A stretch of 64,000 bases of DNA from an uncultured Gammaproteobacteria bacterium (lineage in GTDB: Bacteria; Patescibacteriota; Microgenomatia; CAYSOG01): contig CAYSOG010000003.1 of NCBI GenBank assembly GCA_964432675.1, positions 14,368 through 78,367 of the forward strand, read 5' to 3'. The position numbers were made by a program, and so were the translations under genes. Below the pieces are notes generated by a model. That model saw only the letters and a program-made list of their open reading frames with translations, was not told the DNA's origin and searched no databases. The first letter of the stretch is position 1; each line of letters opens with the position of its first letter. This document shows positions 1 through 49,407 of the stretch, one piece after another.

Positions 1-559
1 TGTTTATTTTTACAGGGTTAGACTGAAAATAGCCTTTTTTAAGAGATAACTTCTTTTTTTTTGCATGCTCCAAAATTTCCTTCAATAAATCCATTTGGCC
101 TGCGAGTGAAGTTAGATAATACCAGTTTGCCTCAAGCTTGTTTACCTTAACCTCATTCTTTGCAAAATTTTGGGCATTTCCGCGATAGGCCAGTACTGTT
201 CTTTCCGCTTGTGGCCCTAATAGTACCGTGCTATAGGCAGTCTGGGCTTTTGGGCTTGCTGTTATAAAATCGGTGGCAATTCTTTCTTGTTGCAGGTGCC
301 ATAGGGCATTTCTCCCTGCCTCGTCCTGGCCGACTTTACTCACTATTCCCGTTATAAAACCTTGACGAGCAAATGTTGTTGCCGTATTGATGCCACCACC
401 ACCAACCGTGGTATACATTTCATCTACGGCTACTTTCGACCCAAAGGCAAAACTTTCAGAGTATCCCGTATCAAAACTACTGTCTTTATGCACTCTAAAT
501 TCCTTGCTTTTCAGAATTACATCGCGTGTTGCAGCACCAAAAGTGAAGACATCAAACAT
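1..559 (-). CDS. PfkB/ribokinase-family carbohydrate kinase (5' part only; C-terminus lies beyond the window start)
   Basis: Manual minus-strand translation from the ATG at 559-557 gives MFDVFTFGAATRDVILKSKEF...MYTTVGGGGINTATTFARQGF...; the N-terminal GA(A/T)xD and the GGGG(x)N glycine box are typical of pfkB kinases. Absent from the ORF track because no stop falls inside the window. Confidence 0.55.
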   Translation of the reverse strand, partial: MFDVFTFGAATRDVILKSKEFRVHKDSSFDTGYSESFAFGSKVAVDEMYTTVGGGGINTATTFARQGFITGIVSKVGQDEAGRNALWHLQQERIATDFITASPKAQTAYSTVLLGPQAERTVLAYRGNAQNFAKNEVKVNKLEANWYYLTSLAGQMDLLKEILEHAKKKKLSLKKGYFQSNPVKIN

Positions 560-696
560 ACTTTTAGTCTAGCTGTTTGGGTAAAAACACGCAACCAAGT
601 AGCTTTTATTTTGTGAAGCGACATGTTAGAATACCTTATTTGCAAGCGCAAAAGTTTATGTTTGCAGTTCTTTACCATAAGAAGGAGAGTAGAAAA

Positions 697-1248
697 GTGG
701 TGTTAACTGTCAATCAAGAGGTGGTCGAACTCGCGAGATCAAGGCTACAGGGGGTGAACTGGATTCCCTATCCAAGTATAGACGGTGGGGCCATATACAG
801 TATTGAGTGGTACGACGACGGCCTATTCGACGGATCACCCCACTATGCGCTTTACAGGTGCAATGCCAACAATATGCACTGGCGTGACTATCTCGGTCAT
901 GCTGCTGGCCGATACATGTACACTGACCCGTTTACACAGTTGCTTCTTGGTGCGCTACAGATCCGTAACCGGATCATGCATCCCGAGTTTCAACTCAGCG
1001 ACAACGAGATTGCTGAGCAGCTAAAAGGTTTCGATGACGAGTTACTTGAGTCCATACGCAGTCTTTGCTCATCACAACCCAGCAGGCCATCGCAAGACAT
1101 CTTCAAGGAGGCATTGGTTAAGGCCTACACTAGCTGGTTCGAACGTTTTCTGAATAAGGTAGTGAGTGAGGGAAATATCATGCCTACTGTATCCTCACAG
1201 CTGCCATGGGGTCCAAACTCCACAATAAATATATCGATTAGAACGTAG
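697..1248 (+). CDS. hypothetical protein with a HEPN-like Rx4H motif (IRNRIMHPE); possible Abi/HEPN-type RNase; GC-atypical
   Basis: ORF track 577..1248; the likely start is GTG at 697, 9 nt downstream of AAGGAG (683-688). The motif R-N-R-I-M-H fits the HEPN Rx4-6H signature, and AbiD/F-like proteins carry RNxxAH. The gene looks more GC-rich than its neighbours. A stem-loop terminator follows, then tRNA-Val. Confidence 0.4.
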   Translation: MVLTVNQEVVELARSRLQGVNWIPYPSIDGGAIYSIEWYDDGLFDGSPHYALYRCNANNMHWRDYLGHAAGRYMYTDPFTQLLLGALQIRNRIMHPEFQLSDNEIAEQLKGFDDELLESIRSLCSSQPSRPSQDIFKEALVKAYTSWFERFLNKVVSEGNIMPTVSSQLPWGPNSTINISIRT

Positions 1249-1285
1249 TATCTCGCATGGATACTGGCTAGTACCTTATACGTAT

Positions 1286-1333
1286 CAGCCCCATCTTCAC
1301 CTAGTGGCGAGGATGGGGTTTTCTTTATATTTT
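1286..1333 (+). terminator. rho-independent terminator (stem CCCCATC/GATGGGG plus TTTTCTTTATATTTT)
   Basis: Stem 1289-1295 / 1312-1318 followed by a T-tract 1319-1333, directly after the stop of the 697..1248 ORF. Confidence 0.45.
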
Positions 1334-1352
1334 ACGCTTCGATATAACTATC

Positions 1353-1426
1353 GGTGGACCCGGATGGAATTGGACCATCGGCCTTTCGGATGTGAACCGA
1401 ACGCTCTACCACTGAGCTACGGGTCC
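1353..1426 (-). tRNA. tRNA-Val (anticodon CAC)
   Basis: The reverse complement folds as a cloverleaf: acceptor GGACCCG/CGGGTCC, D-arm GCTC-AGTGGTA-GAGC, anticodon stem TTCGG/CCGAA with loop TTCACAT (anticodon CAC), T-arm GATGG-TCCAATT-CCATC, discriminator A followed by CC. Confidence 0.8.
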
Positions 1427-1738
1427 CCTCTTCTGCTGATGAATTACTGCCGCAAAAAAGAGATATGGTAAGTCACTAGTATACTTAAGCTACTAGCTAT
1501 TTACCAACAGGTTATAAGAAAAATATGATTGCACTTCTATACTTGCAAGTTTATGCATGATATGGTTTTATAATCATATATTGTGTAACAAACAAGCAAT
1601 TTATTGCAAGGCAAATGAGCTTTGCAATTATAGTGCGACAGCAAACTGATTTAATCAAACGCATTCATCCATTTTTCGTAAAGATGTGAAAACTGCGTTT
1701 TAAAGGAAACGACGTTTTTTTGCGTTTAAAAATAGTAT

Positions 1739-2374
1739 ATGGATGAAGATTACCCACCTAGCATTATTCCGCAAGAGCAAGTAACCCCACAACCTGAAGC
1801 TGCCCAGCCAACTGCAATACACAAACTTGGTCAGTTCTTTTGGGACATTTTAGAAACGGTTGTCTTTGCACTGGCTATATTTGTCATAATTTATTTGTTC
1901 ATTGCCCAGCCACACCAGGTTCAAGGAGATTCGATGTATCCAAATTTCTTATCTGGCGAATACATATTAACGAATAAAATAGTATATCGTTTCGAAAATC
2001 CAAAACGCGGCGATGTTGTCATATTTAACTCACCATTTGAAAAAGACTTCATTAAACGCATTATCGGTGTCCCCGGTGACCATATCAAAATCCAAGGCGG
2101 TCGTGTGTACGTTAATGGCACGCCACTGGAAGAAGCATATTTGCCCAATGGTACTGATACACCAGCAGAATCATTTATCAAAGAAGGTCAAGAAGTCGTT
2201 TTACCTCCCGGACAATATGCTACGTTCGGTGACAATAGGCCAAGGTCATATGATTCAAGGGACTGGGGATTTATACACAAAAGTGACATTATCGGTAAAG
2301 CTTGGATCATTTACTTTCCATTTTCCCACTTCGGTATCGTACCGCAACCACACTATAATGTTAGCGGCTCGTGA
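1739..2374 (+). CDS. lepB: signal peptidase I
   Basis: N-terminal TM segment, then the S26 boxes GDSMYP (catalytic Ser), KRIIGVPGD and GDNRPRSYDSRDWG. Confidence 0.85.
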   Translation: MDEDYPPSIIPQEQVTPQPEAAQPTAIHKLGQFFWDILETVVFALAIFVIIYLFIAQPHQVQGDSMYPNFLSGEYILTNKIVYRFENPKRGDVVIFNSPFEKDFIKRIIGVPGDHIKIQGGRVYVNGTPLEEAYLPNGTDTPAESFIKEGQEVVLPPGQYATFGDNRPRSYDSRDWGFIHKSDIIGKAWIIYFPFSHFGIVPQPHYNVSGS

Positions 2375-29674: not shown

Positions 29675-30422
29675 GTTGTGTTTCCTTAGTCGACTTTTCG
29701 GCGGCGGCAAGATCGTCTTGCGTTGTAACGCCAAACCATTGGTTCGTCTTGCCAAAATCGATCGCCTGTACAGTTTCTCCTTGCTGATTTGCTAACTCGA
29801 TAAGGTCGGTTAAATAATATTCTTGTGTGACTGATGAAGGCGTTATCTTGGTTATATTGGCAGCAAACCACTGTTTTTGGAAGATGTATAGCCCAGGATT
29901 AACTTCGTTAATAAGCCGTTGTTCATCATTTGCATCTTTTTCCTCGATAATTGCTTGCACATTGCCTACCTTGTTCCGAATAATTCGACCTTTTCCCAAT
30001 GGATTAGTAACTTGCATGGTCGCCATTGTAATAACTGCATTACCATTGTTGTGAACCTCGATAAGCGCTTGATAAGTCGTTTGATCTACAAACATCGCAT
30101 TATCTGCATAAAGGATAATAATATGCTCAATAGCTTTGCCTAGCTTTGGCAGTGCATCGGAAGCTGCTGCTGCAGTACCATAGTGCTCCCCCTGGATAAC
30201 AAAGTCGGTGCTTGAGAATTTTCTGACTGCCGCTTCTACAAGTTCGGCTTTGTATTTGATAACCGTAATGACTTGCCCGAGATTGAGCAATGCTAACGTG
30301 TTGAGAGAATAATAGAGCAGCGGCTTACCATTTATTTCATGCAATACTTTTGGTAGTTCCGACTGCATTCGGGTCCCTTTTCCTGCGGCAAGTACAATGG
30401 CAGCGTAGTTATTTTTACCCAT
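29661..30422 (-). CDS. sugar-1-phosphate nucleotidyltransferase (GlmU N-terminal-domain type, no acetyltransferase domain)
   Basis: LAAGKGTRM signature, a GT-A-like fold and a length of about 250 aa. Confidence 0.7.
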   Translation of the reverse strand: MGKNNYAAIVLAAGKGTRMQSELPKVLHEINGKPLLYYSLNTLALLNLGQVITVIKYKAELVEAAVRKFSSTDFVIQGEHYGTAAAASDALPKLGKAIEHIIILYADNAMFVDQTTYQALIEVHNNGNAVITMATMQVTNPLGKGRIIRNKVGNVQAIIEEKDANDEQRLINEVNPGLYIFQKQWFAANITKITPSSVTQEYYLTDLIELANQQGETVQAIDFGKTNQWFGVTTQDDLAAAEKSTKETQHGTK

Positions 30423-31650
30423 GATAACCTAATTTTTCCAGTATATCGGCAGCAATTTGTTTTTCATTCCACGGAAGTTCTTTATCACCAATTGATAATG
30501 ATTTTTGGCTGCCCTTACCAAGAAGAGCAACAATATCACCACGTTTTGCGATGCTAAGGGCTGCTTTCATCGCGTTATACCGATCGGGAATTTTGGCGAA
30601 AACATGGCCGTTTAACTTTTGGGATGACAGCTCGCTTATTCCGACCTCTTTCGCACCAGCCTCTAAACATCCAGGAACTATTTGGCTAATTATATCATTG
30701 ACATCTTCTGAGGCCGGGTCATCGGCAGTAACAATGGCAATATCGGCATTTTCGGCTACCATTTTGCCAGTAATCGGCCGCTTCGTTTTGTCACGCTCCC
30801 CGGCTGAGCCAAACATTGCAATAAGCCGGCCTTTCGTTTGTGTCCGCAAAGCCTTGAGGACCTGCTCGGTCGCATAGGGTGTATGGGCAAAATCAACGAA
30901 GACCTTAAAAGATTGTCCAGCGCTAACCTCATCTAACCTGCCTTCGACCCCTTGAAACGACGAAAGGGTTTGTTTGATATTGGCCTCTTTTACACCAAGT
31001 TCCCTCGTCATTGCTGCTGCAGCCAACGCATTTTGCATATTGTAGGCTCCGGGCAACCTGATCTGGAGTGGAAACGTTACTGGATTGGTTTCGGCGCGAT
31101 TGGTAAGGCCATAGGTGATTGTTTTGCCCGCAATTGTTTCCGCCGATAAAGCTTTATACCAAGGGCCGTCGTTGTTTATGACAGCAACTTTTGTTCCCCG
31201 GAACAATTTTGCTTTGGCTTTAACGTAACGGTCAAATGTTTTATGGTAGTCAAGATGTTCATGCGTGATGTTTGTCAAAACGCCACCGTAAAAGTTGCAG
31301 CCGGTTAATCGATTTTGGTCCAGACCATGGCTTGTTGCTTCAACGACTGCGTATGTACATCCCTGGTCAACCATTGTCCGTAGCAGTTTTTGAAGCGCGA
31401 ACGGATTTGGTGTCGTGACGTGTAATCCAAGCTGTATAACATCATCACCGACTTTAGCGCCAACTGTACTAATAAGGCCAACATTTTTGCCAGCATGAAG
31501 CAACACTTCGTAAATCATATTGGCTGTCGTGGTTTTGCCGTCTGTTCCAGTAACGCCTATAACAATAAGTTTTTTTGCAGGGTACCGGTAAAAAGCCACC
31601 GCACCAAGCGCTACTAAGTAATGGTAGATATTCTTAAGTGATTGGAACAT
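30415..31650 (-). CDS. murE: Mur ligase family protein, MurE-like (DFAHTP motif) but lacking the usual N-terminal UDP-binding domain
   Basis: P-loop GVTGTDGKTTT about 35 aa from the start; VDFAHTP (MurE DYAHTP-type, not the MurF DDSYNAN-type); 411 aa. Confidence 0.65.
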   Translation of the reverse strand: MFQSLKNIYHYLVALGAVAFYRYPAKKLIVIGVTGTDGKTTTANMIYEVLLHAGKNVGLISTVGAKVGDDVIQLGLHVTTPNPFALQKLLRTMVDQGCTYAVVEATSHGLDQNRLTGCNFYGGVLTNITHEHLDYHKTFDRYVKAKAKLFRGTKVAVINNDGPWYKALSAETIAGKTITYGLTNRAETNPVTFPLQIRLPGAYNMQNALAAAAMTRELGVKEANIKQTLSSFQGVEGRLDEVSAGQSFKVFVDFAHTPYATEQVLKALRTQTKGRLIAMFGSAGERDKTKRPITGKMVAENADIAIVTADDPASEDVNDIISQIVPGCLEAGAKEVGISELSSQKLNGHVFAKIPDRYNAMKAALSIAKRGDIVALLGKGSQKSLSIGDKELPWNEKQIAADILEKLGYHG

Positions 31651-31730
31651 TAGCTAAATTATAGCGTACATAATAAGTGATAGCGAGTAAAGCTGAAGAA
31701 AAATGTAATGAAAAAATGCGCAATTTAGTG

Positions 31731-31780
31731 CTTTAAATAAAAAGGGGCGGGCCATCGAGATAATCACGACAGCCCGCCTT
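31731..31780 (-). terminator. rho-independent terminator read on the minus strand (GGCGGGC stem, TTTTTATTT tract)
   Basis: Stem formed by 31744-31752 and 31772-31778, with a T-tract on the minus strand. It lies between the GC-rich basic-ORF segment and murE. Confidence 0.5.
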
Positions 31781-32271
31781 TGAAATAACAAATACTACAA
31801 ATAGTAATTCCGAGGGTAATCAATACCCGGCCCTTGTGGTGTTCCAGGACCGGAAGGTCCACTTGGTCGTCTGGGTACCCTTATTGGTTGTGAGGGTCCA
31901 ACAGGTGGCGATGGACCGGTTGGCTTGGGGGACGGTGGTAGGGTTACCACATTTTACTCCTCAGCCATTTTTGGTGATACTACACGACGCATTTCGCGTC
32001 GCTGTTGCCTCGCTTCTTGCCGGTTACGCTTTTTGGTTGCCGCAACATTCGCCTTCCGAAATTGTTTATGTGGCAACTTATGCGGTGTGGCTGATTTAGC
32101 CATTGGTCATAACCACCATTATTGCTGCCGTTGTGCGGCTTTAAGTGAACCCTTGCGTAGCCGTTGCTCACGACGGTTCAACTTCTTAAGCTGCTTTTCA
32201 GAAAGCTTTCGATTGTTACCATTTTGGGCGTTAACCAGGCTCTTCTGGGCTTGGACCAAGGCATTGTCTCC

Positions 32272-32460
32272 TTATCTGACTTCGAAGATGTGGCCCACAC
32301 TCATCGATAAGCGATTTTGACCCAATAAGCGAGTAGCTACCAATTCCTGAGGCGATGACGGTGGGAGCGAAAAAACGTATTGTTCCGCATAGTGATTTTG
32401 GATAACCTGCCTTCTCGCACTTTTATGCCGTTTCTTGCGGCATCGTTTATGGGTGCTCAC
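32272..32460 (-). CDS. basic mini-ORF B (VSTHKRCRKKRHKSARRQ..., 62 aa) with a perfect SD
   Basis: GTG start directly after the TAG of ORF A, with AGGAGG 9 nt upstream; see the parent feature. Confidence 0.3.
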   Translation of the reverse strand: MSTHKRCRKKRHKSARRQVIQNHYAEQYVFSLPPSSPQELVATRLLGQNRLSMSVGHIFEVR

Positions 32461-32775
32461 CTATATTTTCCTCCTTAGGAAGTTTTCTTCGGGGGTTTGG
32501 TTCGTTTTGGTCACCCATTGTCGTCGTGGTCGTTCAGGTACCACTGGAAGCGCTTTGCCCGATTGCAATGCCACATTACCATTGTTAACAATACCGCCGG
32601 TAAATGCATATGTGAGTGGATCCTGCGATATCGGCTCAGGCCGTCGCTGGCTCTTTGGTCGCTTGGGCTGCACCTTTGACTTTGACCTTTGCGGTTTCGG
32701 TCGACGCCATCGAGCCTTCTGGTTTTTCCCTGACAATGCTTTCACCTCAACGTTAAGATGCCAAATTTGAGGCAA
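32461..32775 (-). CDS. basic mini-ORF A (104 aa, KARWRRPKPQRSKSKVQPKRPKSQRRPEP...)
   Basis: TTG or GTG start with no clear SD; see the parent feature. Confidence 0.25.
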   Translation of the reverse strand: MPQIWHLNVEVKALSGKNQKARWRRPKPQRSKSKVQPKRPKSQRRPEPISQDPLTYAFTGGIVNNGNVALQSGKALPVVPERPRRQWVTKTNQTPEENFLRRKI

Positions 32776-32828
32776 GTTACATACCCGTTTTAATGCCGCC
32801 CTCCTGCTGCAGCAAGCTTAAACATGTA

Positions 32829-32875
32829 GTGCCTCAGGATAGCAGCAAAATACCTTTGCAGTCATCCTGAGGCAC
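32829..32875. repeat. perfect 12-bp inverted repeat GTGCCTCAGGAT-N23-ATCCTGAGGCAC with a nested GCAAA/TTTGC hairpin in the loop
   Basis: Seen directly; located in the divergent region between ORF A and the GNAT gene. Confidence 0.6.
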
Positions 32876-33092
32876 CCAAAATAAAAGACAGCCCACTTTA
32901 CACTACCCTTCCAGGCCTTATTTCCTCGATACTACTATCTTTTAAATGTGCAAGATCATGAGACGAGGAGCTTAAAACATACTCGTCTCTTAGCTCTAAA
33001 TTGCAAAAAAACTTCTCTCAACTAGGTGTGGAGAAGAAGTGTTTCGTTTATTATGACGTATGATACAATAGCAGTCAAGCAAATGCAACACT

Positions 33093-33581
33093 ATGGGGCT
33101 TGCCATTACAAAAAGCAATCGCCATAATATAAATGTAGATAATATGATTGTTTTAGCCAAATTAGCCGATATTTCCATTACAGACCAGATAGCATCGCAG
33201 ATATATACCCTGTTGCAGCAGCTCTCGCCTCGAGCAAAACAGCTTACTACCGACACATTAAATGGGTTAATCAAGCAACCTGGAGTACATACATTTGTGG
33301 CCCAAGACAATGCCACTATAATTGGTATTGTTTCCTGTGTTATTGCAGCCTTACCGCTTAAAAAGATTATGTATATCGAAGAGCTTGTTGTGGATGAAAC
33401 ATACCGAGGCCAGGGTATCGGCAAAAAATTACTCGAGCAGACATTAGCATTGGGTAAACAAGAAGGGGTAACGGAGGTTGATCTTACCTCAAACCCTAGC
33501 CGAACAGCAGCAAGGGCGCTCTATGAAAAATTAGGCCTGCAAAAGGCCCATACTGACTGTTTCCGATTGATTATCGAATAA
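33093..33581 (+). CDS. GNAT-family N-acetyltransferase
   Basis: Acetyl-CoA-binding motif A (VDETYRGQGIGKKLLEQ) and motif B (ARALYEKLGL). Confidence 0.8.
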   Translation: MGLAITKSNRHNINVDNMIVLAKLADISITDQIASQIYTLLQQLSPRAKQLTTDTLNGLIKQPGVHTFVAQDNATIIGIVSCVIAALPLKKIMYIEELVVDETYRGQGIGKKLLEQTLALGKQEGVTEVDLTSNPSRTAARALYEKLGLQKAHTDCFRLIIE

Positions 33582-33643
33582 TAAACTGGCGATTTCTACA
33601 GAAAGACGAGCTCACGTTCCACCTGATACAATTTGTTTTCCCG

Positions 33644-35329
33644 TTATTGCGTTGGGGTAATTCCCCAGTATGCAAAGAGCTCTTTTGCGACATCGTAAAA
33701 AACAGGTTCGGCCGTTAGCGCGCCATGTTCGCCCCCAACTGGTTGTTTCATCCTCACAAGCATCACAAACTTCGGATTATCCGCAGGTCCAAAGCCAATA
33801 TACGATGCGTCAACATTACTATCAGAGTCATAATGGCCGGCTATTGCGACCTGGGCTGTCCCTGTTTTGCCAGCAAACCAAAAACCAGCTGGCTTGTATA
33901 AGCGCTTCGCTTCGCTATTTTCAACTACATATTCCAAAAGCTGGGTCATTTTTTTGGAAGTCTCTTCTGTAATTACCTGCTGAATAACCTTGGGCTTAAT
34001 ATCTATTTCGCCAGTACTTGTAATAATTTTTTTTACAACATGAGGTTCAAGCAATTTGCCGCCGTTGGCTATCGCAGCTTCAGCCCGCACTAGTTGGATA
34101 GGCGTGACGGCAATACCCTGGCCAAATGTAGCCGTAGCATAATCTATTGGATACCATTTATCTTTTGGCCGGAGTTGAGCAACTTGCTCGTCTTCAAGGT
34201 CAATATTGGTACTTTTACCGATGCCGAAGTTATTTAAATACTCATACAACTTATCACGGCCAAGCTGCTCACCAACGTAGATCATACCGTTATTATCGGA
34301 ATTCTTGACAATATCTGACATTGTTTCGTTTTGACGGTAAGTATTGTCCCAATTGTGGATAACACTACCACTAATCTTCCTTGGTTCATCGGTACACGGA
34401 CAAACAGAATCAGGTTTGACCGCGCCGGCGTCAATCGCTGAAGCCATTACGATTGTTTTGAACGTGGATCCAGGTTCATATGTATCGGAAACAATCGGAT
34501 TTGGATAACTGCTTGCATCAGCCTTATAATAGGTTGCCGGTTCGTAGGTTGGATATGAAGCCATTGCTAAAATGCCGCCTGTATTTGGGTCCATAATCAC
34601 AATATCCCCTGATTTGGCATGGAACTTTTCAACGCCTAGCTTAAGCTTTTGCTCAGCAATAAACTGGATTGTGCGGTCAATGTTGAGCACCAGGGTATTA
34701 CCTCGGGTCGCCAAAGCTTCTTGGGCCTGCGCCGTTAGAATTGGACTACCAAACACGTCCGTTTCCTGCGTCACAAACCCTTCATTGCCGCTCAATTCAC
34801 GGTTGTAATACCCTTCGAGGCCAAAGTATCCTTTATCCTTGCCCGCATCATCTTTTCCGACAAACCCTAAAACGTTTGCCGCCATTGAAGCTTCAGGGTA
34901 GAGGCGGCGCTCCTGTCGATCAAAGCCAATGCCTGATAAGTGGAGTTGTTCAATAGTGTCCTTCGTTTGAACCGAAACTGGCGCCGCCAACGGTATCCAA
35001 TCTAAATTTTGGCTTAGTTTTGCGGATATAGAAGCCTCAGGCACTTCTAATAAGGGTGCCACAATTTTTGCGAGGCTATCCTGATTTGTTGTATTTTTCT
35101 TATCAACGAATGGCAAATAGGAAAGTTGGCTTGCTACTAATATTGAGCCATCTGAAAAGAGGATGCTGCCACGTTGTCCAATCGACTTTGTGGTTGTAGT
35201 TTTTTCACTTTCCGCTTTTGCCTGTAGTGTATCGGCCTTAACAACCTGCCAATAAAAAAGGCGTACAACAACGCCGAAAAACAACAGTAACAGAAAGCAT
35301 TTCAAAAACGATGCCCGCCAAGGTATCAT
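33644..35329 (-). CDS. ftsI: class-B penicillin-binding protein (transpeptidase), FtsI/PBP2-like
   Basis: N-terminal TM; SxxK (GSTFK), SxN (SDN) and KTG (AGKTGTA) motifs; lies downstream of ftsL in the dcw cluster. Confidence 0.8.
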   Translation of the reverse strand: MIPWRASFLKCFLLLLFFGVVVRLFYWQVVKADTLQAKAESEKTTTTKSIGQRGSILFSDGSILVASQLSYLPFVDKKNTTNQDSLAKIVAPLLEVPEASISAKLSQNLDWIPLAAPVSVQTKDTIEQLHLSGIGFDRQERRLYPEASMAANVLGFVGKDDAGKDKGYFGLEGYYNRELSGNEGFVTQETDVFGSPILTAQAQEALATRGNTLVLNIDRTIQFIAEQKLKLGVEKFHAKSGDIVIMDPNTGGILAMASYPTYEPATYYKADASSYPNPIVSDTYEPGSTFKTIVMASAIDAGAVKPDSVCPCTDEPRKISGSVIHNWDNTYRQNETMSDIVKNSDNNGMIYVGEQLGRDKLYEYLNNFGIGKSTNIDLEDEQVAQLRPKDKWYPIDYATATFGQGIAVTPIQLVRAEAAIANGGKLLEPHVVKKIITSTGEIDIKPKVIQQVITEETSKKMTQLLEYVVENSEAKRLYKPAGFWFAGKTGTAQVAIAGHYDSDSNVDASYIGFGPADNPKFVMLVRMKQPVGGEHGALTAEPVFYDVAKELFAYWGITPTQ

Positions 35330-47283: not shown

Positions 47284-49062
47284 TTACTTTACCGTTACTG
47301 ACTTTGCGATATTGCGAGGCTTATCAACATTATTACCCAAGGCTACTGTCATGTAGTACGCTAACAATTGCAATGGGAGAACATGCATAATAGCGCTTGT
47401 TTCACCGATATCGGGAACTTTAAGCAAATAGTCAAAGCTTTCGTTGGGTTTTGAAGCGATTGCGATAACCTCTGCCCCTCTCGTTTTTACTTCAGATACT
47501 GCATTTTCAACATCTGCTTTGACATCATCTTCAGCGATCGCGACAATTACTGGCACACCTTTTTCTATAAGCGTTATAACGTAGTGTTTAAGGTCACCTG
47601 CCGGTAGCGCGTGGGCATGTTTATATGTTGCCTCAATAATTTTAACCATGCCTTCTTTGATAATTTGGAAATTTTGTGACTTGCCTAGAAGAAATATATC
47701 TTTAGCCTTGCTAAGGTGGCGCGCTACATTTTTGATAGCCTCATGATTTTCCCTATCGTGAAGATATAACTCTGTCTCATTGGCAAGGTCAAATAAATTC
47801 GCCACTGCACTTTTATATTTACCAGCGATTGCTTTAGCCAATAAATAGCCAAAGGCAATTTGGGAAGTATAAACTTTCGTTGACATGACACAAATTTCTG
47901 GGCCTGCTTGTGACAAAAATCTGAAATCAGATAACTTTGTCATCATACTGCCAGGCATATTAACGTATGAGGCAATCTTTACCCCTTTGCTCTTGATACG
48001 CTCAAGCACTTCCAAAACATCTGCAGTTTCACCACTTTGCGAAGGTGCTATAACAACGTCACCTTTTTTGAAAAGCGGCAAATATTCCCCGGCATCAGCC
48101 CCAATTAAACTAATTGCGTTAACCTTGCCATAGTGCCGTAAGTAAAAAGCAATTTGGGCGGCTGCGATACCGGCAGTTCCCGACCCAATGGTATAGACAT
48201 TGCCGGCTGACTTTATGGCATCTACAAGGCTCATAAGGGCCTTTTTGTCTACTTTACCTACCTGACGCAAGACAAATGGCGTTTCATGGATTTCTTTGAT
48301 CATAAAATGGTCAAAGTCTTTTTTCTCAACCGTATGGTCGGTAAACGATATTTCTTCGATATGTTTTGCAACTTTTTTATTGGTTGCAAGAGCGAAAATA
48401 GTAATATCTTGGTTTTGGCAAACCACCATTTGACCATTTTCTATAACGATCATTTTTTCAGCATAGGGAGCAAAAGAAAGCGTGTCTGAAGAAAAGAAAA
48501 TTTCATTTGTCTTACTATTTAGGCCAATTACCAATGGTGAGCCATTGCGTGATGCCAAAATATCACCTTCCTTTGTTAGTATGACAATGGTGTTTCGGCC
48601 AGCAAGTTGTTGTGCCGTTTGGCGGAGCGCTTCTTTCAGGTCCAAACCTTCACTAACTTTTTGTTCGATGAAGTGAACAATAACTTCTGTATCGGTTTGT
48701 GTAGAAAATTGATACCCCTTTGCTTCCAGTTTTTTCTTAAGCTCTTGATAATTTTCAACGATACCATTTTGGGCTAAGGTAAATGAGTTATCTGTAGAGG
48801 TGTGAGGATGGGCATTTGTCTGGGTAACGCCACCATGGGTTGCCCAACGAGTGTGGCCAATTGCAACTGATGCGTCTGGCAAATTTGTTAATTCAGCGAG
48901 GTCACCAATTGCACCAACTTTCTTTGTTACAGCAATATTTTTCCCGTGCGATGTTGCAATACCCCATGAATCATATCCGCGATATTCAAGACGTTTTAAA
49001 CCTTCAAAAACTACTGTCGAGGCCTTGTTCGTACTACCAACGTAACCAAATATTCCACACAT
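47284..49062 (-). CDS. glmS: glutamine--fructose-6-phosphate aminotransferase
   Basis: N-terminal MCGIFGY (Ntn Cys), a glutaminase domain and two SIS domains; 592 aa. Confidence 0.95.
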   Translation of the reverse strand: MCGIFGYVGSTNKASTVVFEGLKRLEYRGYDSWGIATSHGKNIAVTKKVGAIGDLAELTNLPDASVAIGHTRWATHGGVTQTNAHPHTSTDNSFTLAQNGIVENYQELKKKLEAKGYQFSTQTDTEVIVHFIEQKVSEGLDLKEALRQTAQQLAGRNTIVILTKEGDILASRNGSPLVIGLNSKTNEIFFSSDTLSFAPYAEKMIVIENGQMVVCQNQDITIFALATNKKVAKHIEEISFTDHTVEKKDFDHFMIKEIHETPFVLRQVGKVDKKALMSLVDAIKSAGNVYTIGSGTAGIAAAQIAFYLRHYGKVNAISLIGADAGEYLPLFKKGDVVIAPSQSGETADVLEVLERIKSKGVKIASYVNMPGSMMTKLSDFRFLSQAGPEICVMSTKVYTSQIAFGYLLAKAIAGKYKSAVANLFDLANETELYLHDRENHEAIKNVARHLSKAKDIFLLGKSQNFQIIKEGMVKIIEATYKHAHALPAGDLKHYVITLIEKGVPVIVAIAEDDVKADVENAVSEVKTRGAEVIAIASKPNESFDYLLKVPDIGETSAIMHVLPLQLLAYYMTVALGNNVDKPRNIAKSVTVK

Positions 49063-49407
49063 AGTCAGTGTTTCTCCTTTTTTAGATAGGTAAAACCAAC
49101 GCTAAACGCCTCCGGTTTTTCCTTCAAAATATAATATGGTGGGATTTGGTAGTTACTTGTAATACTTCTTTGTGGCCTGCTTATTGAAACAAGCTTTTGA
49201 AAGCATACTAAAGATTGGTAACACAACCTAAGGGTTTCCGCAGATACTCCTAGCAGGCTATCACCGGCTAGGGCCCGATTGTCTAAAGTAATTTACTTAA
49301 GACCCCTTTCCTCGTATCCACATCCAATTCCTCTGAATGTGGCCACACGCCTTTAAAAGAACCTCCTTTTCATACCGTTCCCGATTTATTATTGTAAGCA
49401 CATTAAC
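49063..49407 (-). ncRNA. long structured 5' leader of glmS; candidate glmS-ribozyme-like element (unverified)
   Basis: A 345-nt gap in a genome where most intergenic gaps are about 100 nt or less. The minus-strand leader contains ACGAGGA followed by an AAGGGG...CCCUUAGG stem enclosing CCUAGC-N12-GCUAGG, reminiscent of the GACGAGGA core of glmS ribozymes. glmS ribozymes are known upstream of glmS in Gram-positive bacteria. Confidence 0.2.

What the first reader, a model, noticed from the sequence alone, without database searches (positions are those of the whole stretch)
577..1426. GC-atypical HEPN-motif gene abutting tRNA-Val: possible small defence or toxin islet at a tRNA integration site
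The ORF at 697-1248 is visibly more GC-rich than the flanking pfkB and lepB genes. It has a strong SD with a GTG start and its own hairpin terminator, and it ends 105 nt from the 3' end of tRNA-Val(CAC) on the opposite strand. Its only recognisable feature is IRNRIMHPE, which fits the HEPN Rx4-6H RNase signature (AbiD/AbiF/Abi_2-like proteins carry RN..AH). A tRNA-adjacent position, compositional atypicality and a HEPN motif are the usual marks of acquired abortive-infection or toxin genes. No partner antitoxin ORF is obvious, although the 310-nt AT-rich gap beyond the tRNA is unexplained.
Basis: partly seen in the sequence, partly recalled or inferred. Interest (0 to 1): 0.55.

Follow-up and report, generated by a model that had tools for sequence, protein, structure and literature searches.

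The report
Orphan foreign-looking gene beside tRNA-Val
A real but completely orphan 183-codon gene with foreign-looking base composition sits at a rearrangement-prone spot next to a tRNA-Val gene in a candidate-phyla-radiation bacterium; nothing beyond one six-residue motif supports calling it a HEPN RNase toxin or defence gene.

Summary
ORF 697-1248 (+) has a GTG start, an AAGGAG Shine-Dalgarno 9 nt upstream and its own hairpin/U-run terminator. It ends 104 nt from the 3' end of tRNA-Val(CAC) on the other strand. It is the strongest composition outlier among genuine genes in the window (GC 0.49 vs 0.415; GC3 0.55 vs median 0.36). The open frame is far longer than chance (P about 5e-5), so it is a gene.

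- **Acquired, variable site: supported.** tRNA-Val/lepB is an ancestral divergent pair in this Patescibacteria lineage. The DNA on the tRNA's 3' side differs in almost every relative, and none carries this gene.
- **Integration: not supported.** There is no integrase and no repeat of the tRNA 3' end.
- **HEPN: not supported.** Pfam, PADLOC, NCBIfam, PHROGs, PDB sequence search, two AlphaFold models with Foldseek, and HMMER against 1.84 billion representative proteins gave no HEPN hit and no true homologue. Rx4-6H occurs by chance 0.4 times per protein of this size, and RNx3H 0.03 times.
- **The 312-nt gap** is the divergent tRNA/lepB promoter region and holds a box conserved in relatives.

Verdict: an ordinary orphan accessory gene, probably horizontally acquired, of unknown biochemistry. 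Low interest.

The parts
2..559 (-). Left flank: 5' part of a PfkB-family sugar kinase gene (cut by the window edge); divergent from the orphan gene
   Evidence: Pfam PF00294, E 8e-18. The orthologue in relative L003 is 41% identical and also lies left of tRNA-Val.
682..689 (+). Shine-Dalgarno sequence AAGGAGAG, 9 nt before GTG697
   Evidence: Sequence and spacer count. Only 2 of 52 ORFs of 150 aa or more have an SD core of 5 nt or more at their first start. About nine distinct ORFs of 40 aa or more in the window carry AAGGAG/AGGAGG.
697..1248 (+). Orphan protein-coding gene, 183 aa (alternative in-frame starts ATG658 and TTG577); GC 0.49, GC3 0.55
   Evidence: ORF list and translation. Open frame P about 5e-5. 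Composition. No homologue in the 5.8-billion-cluster collection or in 1.84 billion representatives. The RNA fold shows no excess structure, z = +0.58.
964..981 (+). Codons for R90-N-R-I-M-H95, the only HEPN-like feature (Rx4H with N after R)
   Evidence: Translation. Chance rates. In the low-confidence AF2 models it sits at the C-terminal end of helix 78-93/94, before a loop.
1287..1334 (+). Intrinsic-terminator-like hairpin (1287-1320) plus U-rich tail, ending the orphan gene
   Evidence: RNA fold: the hairpin is in both the MFE and the centroid structure, about -24 kcal/mol.
1353..1426 (-). tRNA-Val(CAC); its 3' end faces the orphan gene
   Evidence: ARAGORN. Rfam RF00005, 71 bits. The same tRNA lies divergent from lepB in L003 and in 20 of 27 metagenome loci.
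1427..1738 (.). AT-rich (GC 0.32) divergent promoter region of tRNA-Val and lepB. It holds a box (about 1541-1571, TTGCAA-N12-TATGGTTTTAT) shared with relatives.
   Evidence: Alignment of lepB upstream regions: the box is present in the window, L002, L003, L004 and L006. It is not a general motif of the window. No Rfam hit and no ORF over 37 aa lying wholly within the gap.
1739..2374 (+). Right flank: signal peptidase I (lepB), start of the conserved lepB-parB-L27-methyltransferase-L21 block
   Evidence: Pfam PF10502, E 2e-49. Synteny in L002-L007.

Best explanation
The ORF at 697-1248 is a genuine, lineage-restricted orphan gene. It most likely entered this Patescibacteria (CPR, Microgenomates-like) genome by horizontal transfer, at a recombination-prone synteny breakpoint on the 3' side of the ancestral tRNA-Val/lepB pair.

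Shown:
- It carries its own translation signal (AAGGAG-N9-GTG) and its own intrinsic terminator, so it forms a one-gene unit. It is divergent from pfkB and convergent with the tRNA.
- Its product is a roughly 21-kDa protein with no detectable signal peptide or membrane segment.
- Low-confidence models give an aromatic/Gly/Asp-rich N-terminal half and three long C-terminal helices (78-93, 102-126, 133-157).
- It has no detectable relative anywhere.

Inferred:
- It is accessory cargo of mobile or phage origin rather than a core function.
- It arrived by illegitimate or homologous recombination next to the tRNA, not by an integrase, because no integrase or att repeat remains.

Its biochemical activity is not established. 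A HEPN-like metal-independent RNase using R90/N91/H95 is the single most concrete hypothesis. I give it only about 10-15%.
For: **Real gene.** The open frame of 226 codons has P about 5e-5. The SD is correctly spaced and a terminator hairpin follows. GC1 > GC2 < GC3 (0.52/0.40/0.55) and weak codon-position periodicity, p = 0.04. There is no excess RNA structure and no Rfam family.

**Foreign.** GC is 0.49 against 0.415. GC3 is the highest of all genuine genes in the window. The host codon-model score of -0.06 is below all 37 long host genes, whose minimum is 0.012. The GC rise starts at the start codon and falls after about 1200.

**Orphan.** It matched only itself among 5.8 billion clusters. 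Against 1.84 billion representatives read by HMMER it matched only itself plus two repeat-protein artefacts. tblastn against phages and plasmids and a scan of IMG/VR gave nothing.

**Variable site.**
- The tRNA-Val(CAC)(-)/lepB(+) pair is conserved in L003 and in 20 of 27 loci with LepB 38-58% identical.
- The gene on the tRNA 3' side varies: a lipase-like hydrolase, a polysaccharide flippase, peptidase S51, an HD protein or unknowns. In L003 it is a 3.5-kb block of other genes between pfkB and the tRNA.
- The contig of relative L002 ends inside the tRNA.
- Other spots around lepB in relatives carry small GC-rich orphan genes. The L003 99-aa and 122-aa genes have GC3 0.56 and 0.55, and the 99-aa gene (the only one searched) is itself a singleton.
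Against: - No close relative (LepB above 64% identity) was available, so absence of the gene from truly sister genomes and the direction of the change (gain here or loss elsewhere) are not shown.
- No mobility gene or att scar was found.
- Codon-level coding evidence is weak. The host model does not separate the ORF's frame from the antisense frame, as expected for a foreign gene but also for a non-gene.
- Strong SDs are a minority feature but are not absent from host genes.
- Expression is untested.
- The source is a metagenome-assembled contig, so a local assembly artefact cannot be formally excluded.
Confidence: 0.65

Rival explanations
1. Stand-alone, highly divergent HEPN-type RNase acting as a toxin or abortive-infection effector. 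R90/N91/H95 form the metal-independent active site, probably across a homodimer. The protein would cleave RNA on phage infection or stress.
For: - The motif I-R-N-R-I-M-H-P has the canonical form: Rx4H, N after R, hydrophobic residues on the helix face. The validated HepT toxin SO_3166 has RNIAVH.
- In both AF2 models the motif lies at the C-terminal end of a helix, running into a loop that precedes a long helix. [quoted passage not shown]
- RNx3H is uncommon by chance, 0.027 per 183 aa.
- The gene is foreign and lies at a variable site.
- HEPN families are notoriously divergent.
Against: - No HEPN family hit appeared at E up to 10 in Pfam, with the whole protein or with four fragments. PADLOC, NCBIfam and PHROGs also gave nothing.
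- PDB sequence search found no HEPN chain. Foldseek found no HEPN structure, though the models are of low confidence.
- Upstream of the motif helix the models show one short helix and beta/coil, not the helix-1/helix-2 hairpin.
- No Ex3[KR] acidic motif lies upstream of the Rx4H (read from the sequence; criterion).
- There is no antitoxin, MNT or other partner gene.
- The generic Rx4-6H motif occurs in 27 of 57 long ORFs of this window.
Confidence: 0.12
2. Native, fast-evolving lineage-specific gene of this organism, not horizontally acquired. Its odd composition would reflect its own amino-acid or expression constraints.
For: - Orphan genes are very common in CPR genomes (general knowledge).
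- Some host genes also use strong SDs.
- Ribosomal protein L21 reaches GC3 0.45.
- No mobility signature was found.
Against: - GC3 of 0.55 exceeds every genuine host gene in 64 kb, and the codon-model score is below all of them.
- The gene is absent from the syntenic pfkB...tRNA-Val interval of L003 and from all related loci.
- No detectable homologue exists even in the 59-64%-LepB relatives.
Confidence: 0.13
3. A non-functional open frame: a decaying remnant of a larger acquired element, or a fortuitous ORF, no longer making a useful protein.
For: - There are no homologues, so purifying selection cannot be shown.
- Periodicity is weak and there is no frame preference under the host codon model.
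- AF2 confidence is low, pLDDT 47 and 57.
- A second GC-rich stretch in the same window (31650-33000) has no long ORF and looks degraded.
Against: - The frame is intact for 226 codons, P about 5e-5.
- A start codon lies precisely behind a strong SD, and a terminator follows 38 nt after the stop.
- The sequence is protein-like, with amphipathic helices and no low complexity.
Confidence: 0.09
4. The GC-rich segment is a structured non-coding RNA, and the ORF is incidental.
For: RNA genes are typically GC-rich in AT-rich genomes, and the segment is adjacent to a tRNA.
Against: - The fold energy is no better than shuffles (z = +0.58; 72 of 100 shuffles fold as well).
- No Rfam match appeared even at E up to 1.
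- The long open frame with SD and terminator would be unexplained.
Confidence: 0.01

Closest known systems
HEPN superfamily RNase toxins (HepT/DUF86 of HEPN-MNT modules, e.g. Shewanella SO_3166; Abi_2/AbiD-AbiF)
   Same: The protein has an R-N-x3-H motif (RNRIMH, against RNIAVH in SO_3166) at the end of a predicted helix and the start of a loop. It is small and cytoplasmic, and the gene lies in an accessory, compositionally foreign position.
   Different: There is no profile or structural similarity to any HEPN family. The helix-1/helix-2 hairpin is not predicted. There is no upstream Ex3[K/R] motif and no MNT or other partner gene. The N-terminal half is aromatic and Gly-rich with predicted beta, which is atypical for HEPN.
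tRNA-linked genomic islands and islets (integrase-mediated insertion into the 3' end of a tRNA gene)
   Same: The gene lies directly downstream of the tRNA 3' end. Its composition is atypical and the site is variable among relatives. One relative's contig breaks inside the tRNA.
   Different: It is a single gene of about 650 bp. There is no integrase or recombinase, no direct repeat of the tRNA 3' end, and no other mobile-element genes.
Singleton (ORFan) genes of candidate-phyla-radiation/Patescibacteria genomes
   Same: It has no homologue in any database searched, is short, and sits at a synteny breakpoint. Similar small GC-rich genes without any Pfam family flank lepB in relatives (L003 99-aa and 122-aa genes, L006 107-aa gene); the L003 99-aa gene, the only one searched, is also a singleton.
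   Different: Nothing beyond its unusually clear expression signals and its strong compositional contrast with the host.
Tobacco mosaic virus coat protein (four-helix up-down bundle; PDB 8eaw tandem construct)
   Same: There is a local 23-residue resemblance around the motif: DPFTQLLLGALQIRNRIMHPEFQ against [23 protein letters not shown].
   Different: The per-domain E-value is 28. The reported E of 0.01 arises only because the construct holds two copies. There is no extended similarity, so I treat it as chance.

Membership tests
HEPN superfamily | Rx4-6H motif with a polar residue (N/D/H) right after R | tested here: met
   R90-N91-R-I-M-H95. Weak on its own: Rx4-6H occurs 0.40 and RNx3H 0.027 times per 183 aa in this window's ORFs. 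Criterion from PMC3710099.
HEPN superfamily | Detectable sequence-profile similarity to at least one HEPN family (Pfam HEPN clan, PADLOC defence HEPN models) | tested here: not met
   No HEPN hit at E up to 10 for the whole protein or for four fragments. PADLOC, NCBIfam and PHROGs gave nothing. PDB phmmer gave none. HHpred-type profile-profile search against HEPN families could not be run.
HEPN superfamily | Four-helix up-down bundle: helix-1/helix-2 hairpin, an insert, then helix-3 carrying the motif at its end, a loop, and helix-4 | tested here: inconclusive
   The AF2 models place the motif at the end of helix 78-93/94, followed by a loop and helix 102-126, which is compatible. Upstream there is only one short helix (7-17) plus beta/coil. 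pLDDT is 47 and 57. Foldseek found no HEPN structure.
HEPN superfamily | Second conserved acidic residue (Ex3[K/R]) in helix-2, upstream of the motif (present in many families, not all) | tested here: not met
   No E-x3-[KR] lies N-terminal of R90 in the sequence (criterion). The only such pair, E139-K143, is downstream.
HEPN superfamily | Metal-independent RNase activity dependent on R and H | not testable with these tools
   Needs expression, R90A/H95A mutants and RNA cleavage assays.
Type II toxin-antitoxin module (e.g. HEPN-MNT) | Adjacent, co-oriented partner gene forming a two-gene operon | tested here: not met
   The gene is monocistronic between the divergent pfkB and the convergent tRNA. 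Only ORFs of 55 aa or less occur, overlapping the tRNA or promoter region.
tRNA-integrated genomic island | Integrase or recombinase gene within the inserted segment | tested here: not met
   The segment between pfkB and the tRNA holds only this ORF. No integrase flanks the tRNA in any of the related loci examined.
tRNA-integrated genomic island | Direct repeat of the tRNA 3' end (att scar) at the distal boundary | tested here: not met
   The repeat finder on 1-2400 found none on the correct side. The 24-mer and 15-mer of the tRNA 3' end, with up to 3 mismatches, occur only once in the 64 kb. Only 1352 nt of left flank exist in the window.
tRNA-integrated genomic island | Atypical composition, and absence from the same site in relatives | tested here: met
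   GC/GC3 outlier. Absent from L003's pfkB...tRNA-Val interval and from all 34 loci. The relatives are distant, with LepB at most 64% identical.

The most novel reading that the evidence does not exclude
The protein is the founding, so far unique, member of an undetected HEPN-like RNase family. It would be a partner-less toxin or abortive-infection effector carried as a one-gene cassette into a CPR bacterium. It might share a distant origin with other small GC-rich orphan genes that flank lepB in relatives: its C-terminal 68 residues align weakly with the L003 99-aa orphan (26% identity; 1 of 500 shuffles score as high).
Probability: 0.1. Interest if true: 0.5.

Novelty: new member of a known kind. 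Interest (0 to 1): 0.2.

Why it matters
As it stands, it matters little. It is one more singleton accessory gene in a CPR genome, at a tRNA-flanking synteny breakpoint.

The practical point is a caution. An Rx4-6H match is expected by chance in about 40% of proteins of this size here, so motif spotting alone should not label defence genes.

If the HEPN reading were confirmed experimentally, it would add a very divergent stand-alone HEPN RNase to the superfamily and give a rare handle on phage-defence biology in Patescibacteria. That would be a modest advance.

The conserved tRNA-Val/lepB pair with an ever-changing neighbour is a usable marker locus for studying gene flux in this lineage.

Tried and rejected
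**Family and homology searches, all negative**
- Pfam, PADLOC, NCBIfam and PHROGs on the whole protein, the 223-aa extension and four fragments.
- phmmer against PDB sequences. The only curiosity was a TMV coat-protein tandem construct, with a per-domain E of 28, which I treat as chance.
- The word-indexed search of 5.8 billion clusters found only the protein itself.
- The full HMMER search of 1.84 billion representatives found only the protein itself plus P0003 and P0004. Those are giant repeat proteins in which an 18-29-residue weak match is summed 12-13 times, so they are artefacts.
- tblastn against phages gave a best E of 0.3, inside a tape-measure gene. tblastn against plasmids gave nothing, and the IMG/VR scan gave nothing.

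**Structure**
- AF2 on the single sequence, full length (pLDDT 47) and residues 71-183 (pLDDT 57).
- Foldseek against PDB and BFVD gave a best E of 0.07-0.45 and no HEPN structure.

**Attempts to find close relatives**
- The exact-protein contig look-up found nothing on record.
- The GTDB genome scan with LepB returned only a 31%-identical Clostridium match.

**A possible relative**
- The L003 99-aa gene aligns with the C-terminal part (BLASTP 26% identity, z = 5.2). tblastn E is 0.17-0.31 in the small local databases, and that gene is itself a singleton, so no profile could be built.

**Other ideas tested and dropped**
- Structured-RNA alternative: rejected.
- att-scar search: negative.
- The supplement of the HEPN paper, as a source of family alignments for my own profile-profile test: only an HTML index is held.
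- I first thought a strong SD was nearly unique to this gene (2 of 52 long ORFs). A window-wide scan found strong SDs on several small host genes, so I softened that argument.

Full report
**What is there**

The interval between a PfkB-family kinase gene (2-559, minus strand) and a signal peptidase I gene (lepB, 1739-2374, plus strand) holds two things:
- one long open frame on the plus strand, 577-1248 from the first TTG and 697-1248 from GTG;
- a tRNA-Val(CAC) gene on the minus strand, 1353-1426.

GTG697 lies 9 nt behind AAGGAG (682-687). Thirty-eight nucleotides after the stop codon there is a hairpin (1287-1320) followed by a U-rich run. It is present in both the MFE and the centroid fold. 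The simple terminator scan missed it, probably because the hairpin does not fit its stem/loop criteria. The stop codon is 104 nt from the tRNA's 3' end. The peptide IRNRIMHPE is residues 89-97.

**Is it more than chance, and is it a gene?**

- The longest open frame in the 793-nt gap is 226 codons. Only 5e-5 of 20,000 Markov simulations with the region's own dinucleotide content reach that length, and 1.4e-3 reach 183 codons.
- GC by codon position is 0.52/0.40/0.55, the pattern of coding DNA from a genome of about 50% GC. Codon-position periodicity is weakly significant, p = 0.04.
- As RNA, the segment folds no better than shuffles (z = +0.58). It matches no Rfam family even at E up to 1.

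I conclude it is a protein-coding gene. GTG697 is the likeliest start. ATG658 and TTG577 remain possible, but the 577-696 extension has intergenic-like GC of 0.35.

**Composition**

- The gene has GC 0.489 against a window mean of 0.415, the 98th percentile of 552-nt windows.
- GC3 is 0.55. The median of 37 long host genes is 0.36 and their maximum is 0.485. Among genuine genes in the 64 kb it is the top outlier, and the ORFs listed above it are antisense shadows of real genes.
- Its score under a host codon model (-0.06) is below that of every training gene (minimum 0.012).
- The GC rise begins at the start codon and decays after about 1200.
- A strong SD is a minority feature here. Only 2 of 52 ORFs of 150 aa or more have one at their first start. 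It is not unique, because several small host genes have one.

**Homology**

Nothing was found.
- Pfam, PADLOC, NCBIfam and PHROGs gave no meaningful hit at E up to 10, either for the whole protein or for fragments centred on the motif.
- The 5.8-billion-cluster search returned only the protein itself, from an NCBI contig of 91,864 nt.
- HMMER against 1.84 billion representatives returned the protein itself plus two giant repeat proteins. In those, an 18-29-residue weak match is counted 12-13 times, so they are artefacts.
- tblastn against phages and plasmids and a scan of IMG/VR were negative.
- PDB sequence searches gave only chance-level matches. One is a curious 23-residue resemblance to TMV coat protein, with a per-domain E of 28.

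**Structure**

With no alignment available, AlphaFold gave low-confidence models, pLDDT 47 for the full length and 57 for residues 71-183.
- The N-terminal half is predicted as one short helix (7-17) followed by beta/coil through an aromatic/Gly/Asp-rich segment.
- The C-terminal half is predicted as three long helices at 78-93, 102-126 and 133-157.
- Foldseek against PDB and BFVD gave no match better than E 0.07 and no HEPN structure.

**The HEPN question**

Anantharaman et al. (PMC3710099) define the domain by three features:
- a four-helix up-down bundle with an insert between helices 2 and 3;
- often an upstream Ex3[K/R].

The orphan protein has the motif in its best form. RNRIMH compares with RNIAVH in the validated toxin SO_3166 (PMC4621449). 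The models also put it at a helix end. Against that:
- the two N-terminal helices are not predicted;
- the upstream acidic motif is absent;
- no profile or fold similarity exists;
- there is no partner gene.

The motif's weight is small. In this window's own ORFs, Rx4-6H occurs 0.40 times per 183 residues (27 of 57 long ORFs have it), and RNx3H occurs 0.027 times. I put the HEPN RNase reading at about 10-15%. It cannot be excluded, because HEPN families are extremely divergent, but nothing beyond six residues supports it.

**Genomic context in relatives**

The organism is a Patescibacteria/CPR bacterium. Its LepB is closest to Logan-assembled contigs at 54-64% identity. At about 52% identity it matches proteins named Microgenomates, Gottesmanbacteria or Patescibacteria. 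No closer relative could be found.

To the right of lepB, synteny is conserved: parB, L27, a methyltransferase, L21, ftsW.

The divergent tRNA-Val(CAC)/lepB pair is ancestral.
- It is present in L003.
- L002's contig ends inside the tRNA.
- It is present in 20 of 27 JGI metagenome loci whose LepB is only 38-58% identical.

What lies on the tRNA's 3' side differs nearly everywhere:
- lipase-like hydrolases (L012, L013);
- polysaccharide flippases (L023, L032);
- peptidase S51 (L029);
- an HD protein (L030);
- unknown proteins (L008, L014, L024, L026);
- in L003, a 3.5-kb block between pfkB and the tRNA, made up of a spermine-synthase-like gene, an acetyltransferase_6/FemAB-like gene, an SLT gene and a short 75-aa ORF.

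None of these is an integrase, and none resembles the orphan protein. The tRNA's 3' flank is therefore a long-standing synteny breakpoint. The orphan gene is this genome's private occupant of it.

There is no copy of the tRNA 3' end anywhere else in the window. Integrase-mediated insertion is therefore not shown.

**The 312-nt gap**

The AT-rich stretch 1427-1738 is the shared upstream region of the tRNA and lepB.
- It contains a box, TTGCAA-N12-TATGGTTTTAT (about 1541-1571). The box recurs upstream of lepB in L002, L003, L004 and L006 and is not a general motif of the window.
- It holds no Rfam family and no ORF above 37 aa lying wholly within it.
- Gaps between the tRNA and lepB in relatives range from roughly 60 to 280 nt. 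The window's gap is the longest, but not different in kind.

**Related oddities**

- In relatives, the lepB-parB junction also carries small extra genes. L003's 99-aa and 122-aa genes have GC3 0.56 and 0.55 against host values of about 0.35-0.43. L006's 107-aa gene has GC 0.57. None of these three matches a Pfam family at its threshold.
- The L003 99-aa gene is itself a singleton. It aligns weakly with the C-terminal 68 residues of the window's orphan protein: 26% identity, z = 5.2, and 1 of 500 shuffles score as high. tblastn E is 0.17-0.31. That is suggestive, not significant.
- Inside the window, a second GC-rich stretch (31650-33000) interrupts a PBP-transpeptidase/Mur-ligase junction and remains unexplained.

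**Conclusion**

The finding is a real, well-delimited, compositionally foreign orphan gene at a tRNA-flanking synteny breakpoint.
- The 'HEPN defence/toxin' half rests on one short motif and fails every other test I could apply.

This is an ordinary kind of object, a singleton accessory gene in a CPR genome, and it merits low interest unless experiments show RNase toxicity.

Noticed in passing
window 31650-33000: This 1.3-kb stretch has GC 0.48-0.50 and is inserted between a Mur ligase gene (30415-31650, -) and a GNAT gene plus a PBP transpeptidase gene (33093-35329). It has no ORF over 131 aa, no Pfam or Rfam hit and no tandem repeat. Its minus strand carries small basic ORFs behind strong SDs and ends in a strong hairpin with a U-run. 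The RNA fold of 31660-32330(-) gives z = -4.8, from only 20 shuffles. It shows the same 'GC-rich plus strong SD' signature as the orphan gene and remains unexplained.
   Followed up: partly
window 1541-1571; L002, L003, L004, L006 upstream of lepB: A conserved box, TTGCA(A/C)-N12-TATGGTTT(T/C)AT, lies upstream of lepB in five of seven related loci. It keeps a roughly constant distance (about 115-125 nt) from the tRNA-Val 5' end in the window and L003, and a variable distance (35-160 nt) from lepB. It is probably a promoter or regulatory element of this gene pair, and it is not a general motif of the window.
   Followed up: partly
L003 5766-6592; L006 879-1533; L002 912-2120: The lepB-parB junction, which is tight in the window (39 nt), holds extra genes in relatives: two small GC-rich genes without any Pfam family in L003 (99 and 122 aa, GC3 about 0.55), a 107-aa zinc-ribbon protein (GC 0.57) plus a 109-aa protein in L006, and a 402-aa protein with weak beta-propeller hits in L002. 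The L003 99-aa protein is a database singleton and aligns weakly with the C-terminus of the window's orphan protein.
   Followed up: partly
L002 1-48; L005, L006 and L007 left ends: Four of six Logan contigs carrying the closest LepB homologues end 170-300 nt upstream of lepB, and L002 ends inside the tRNA-Val gene. This suggests strain-level heterogeneity or repeats at this point in those populations.
   Followed up: no
L004 64-432: In one relative, the position upstream of lepB is occupied by a small GIY-YIG (T5orf172-like) protein instead of tRNA-Val. This is a type of gene often associated with mobile or homing elements.
   Followed up: no
window 49151-49362 (-): A glmS ribozyme (Rfam RF00234, 53 bits) lies upstream of the 592-aa gene at 47284-49062. 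That gene also has one of the few strong SDs among long genes.
   Followed up: no
window, all long ORFs: Most long genes in this genome lack a recognisable Shine-Dalgarno sequence at the first start codon (43 of 52 have no core of 4 nt or more). Strong SDs are concentrated on small genes and on the GC-rich segments.
   Followed up: partly
window 1660-1738: Between the conserved box and the lepB start, the window has about 125 nt more than L003. This includes a small hairpin plus T-run (aaaactgcgtttt...acgacgttttttt) just before lepB, possibly a leader or attenuator. It was not analysed.
   Followed up: no
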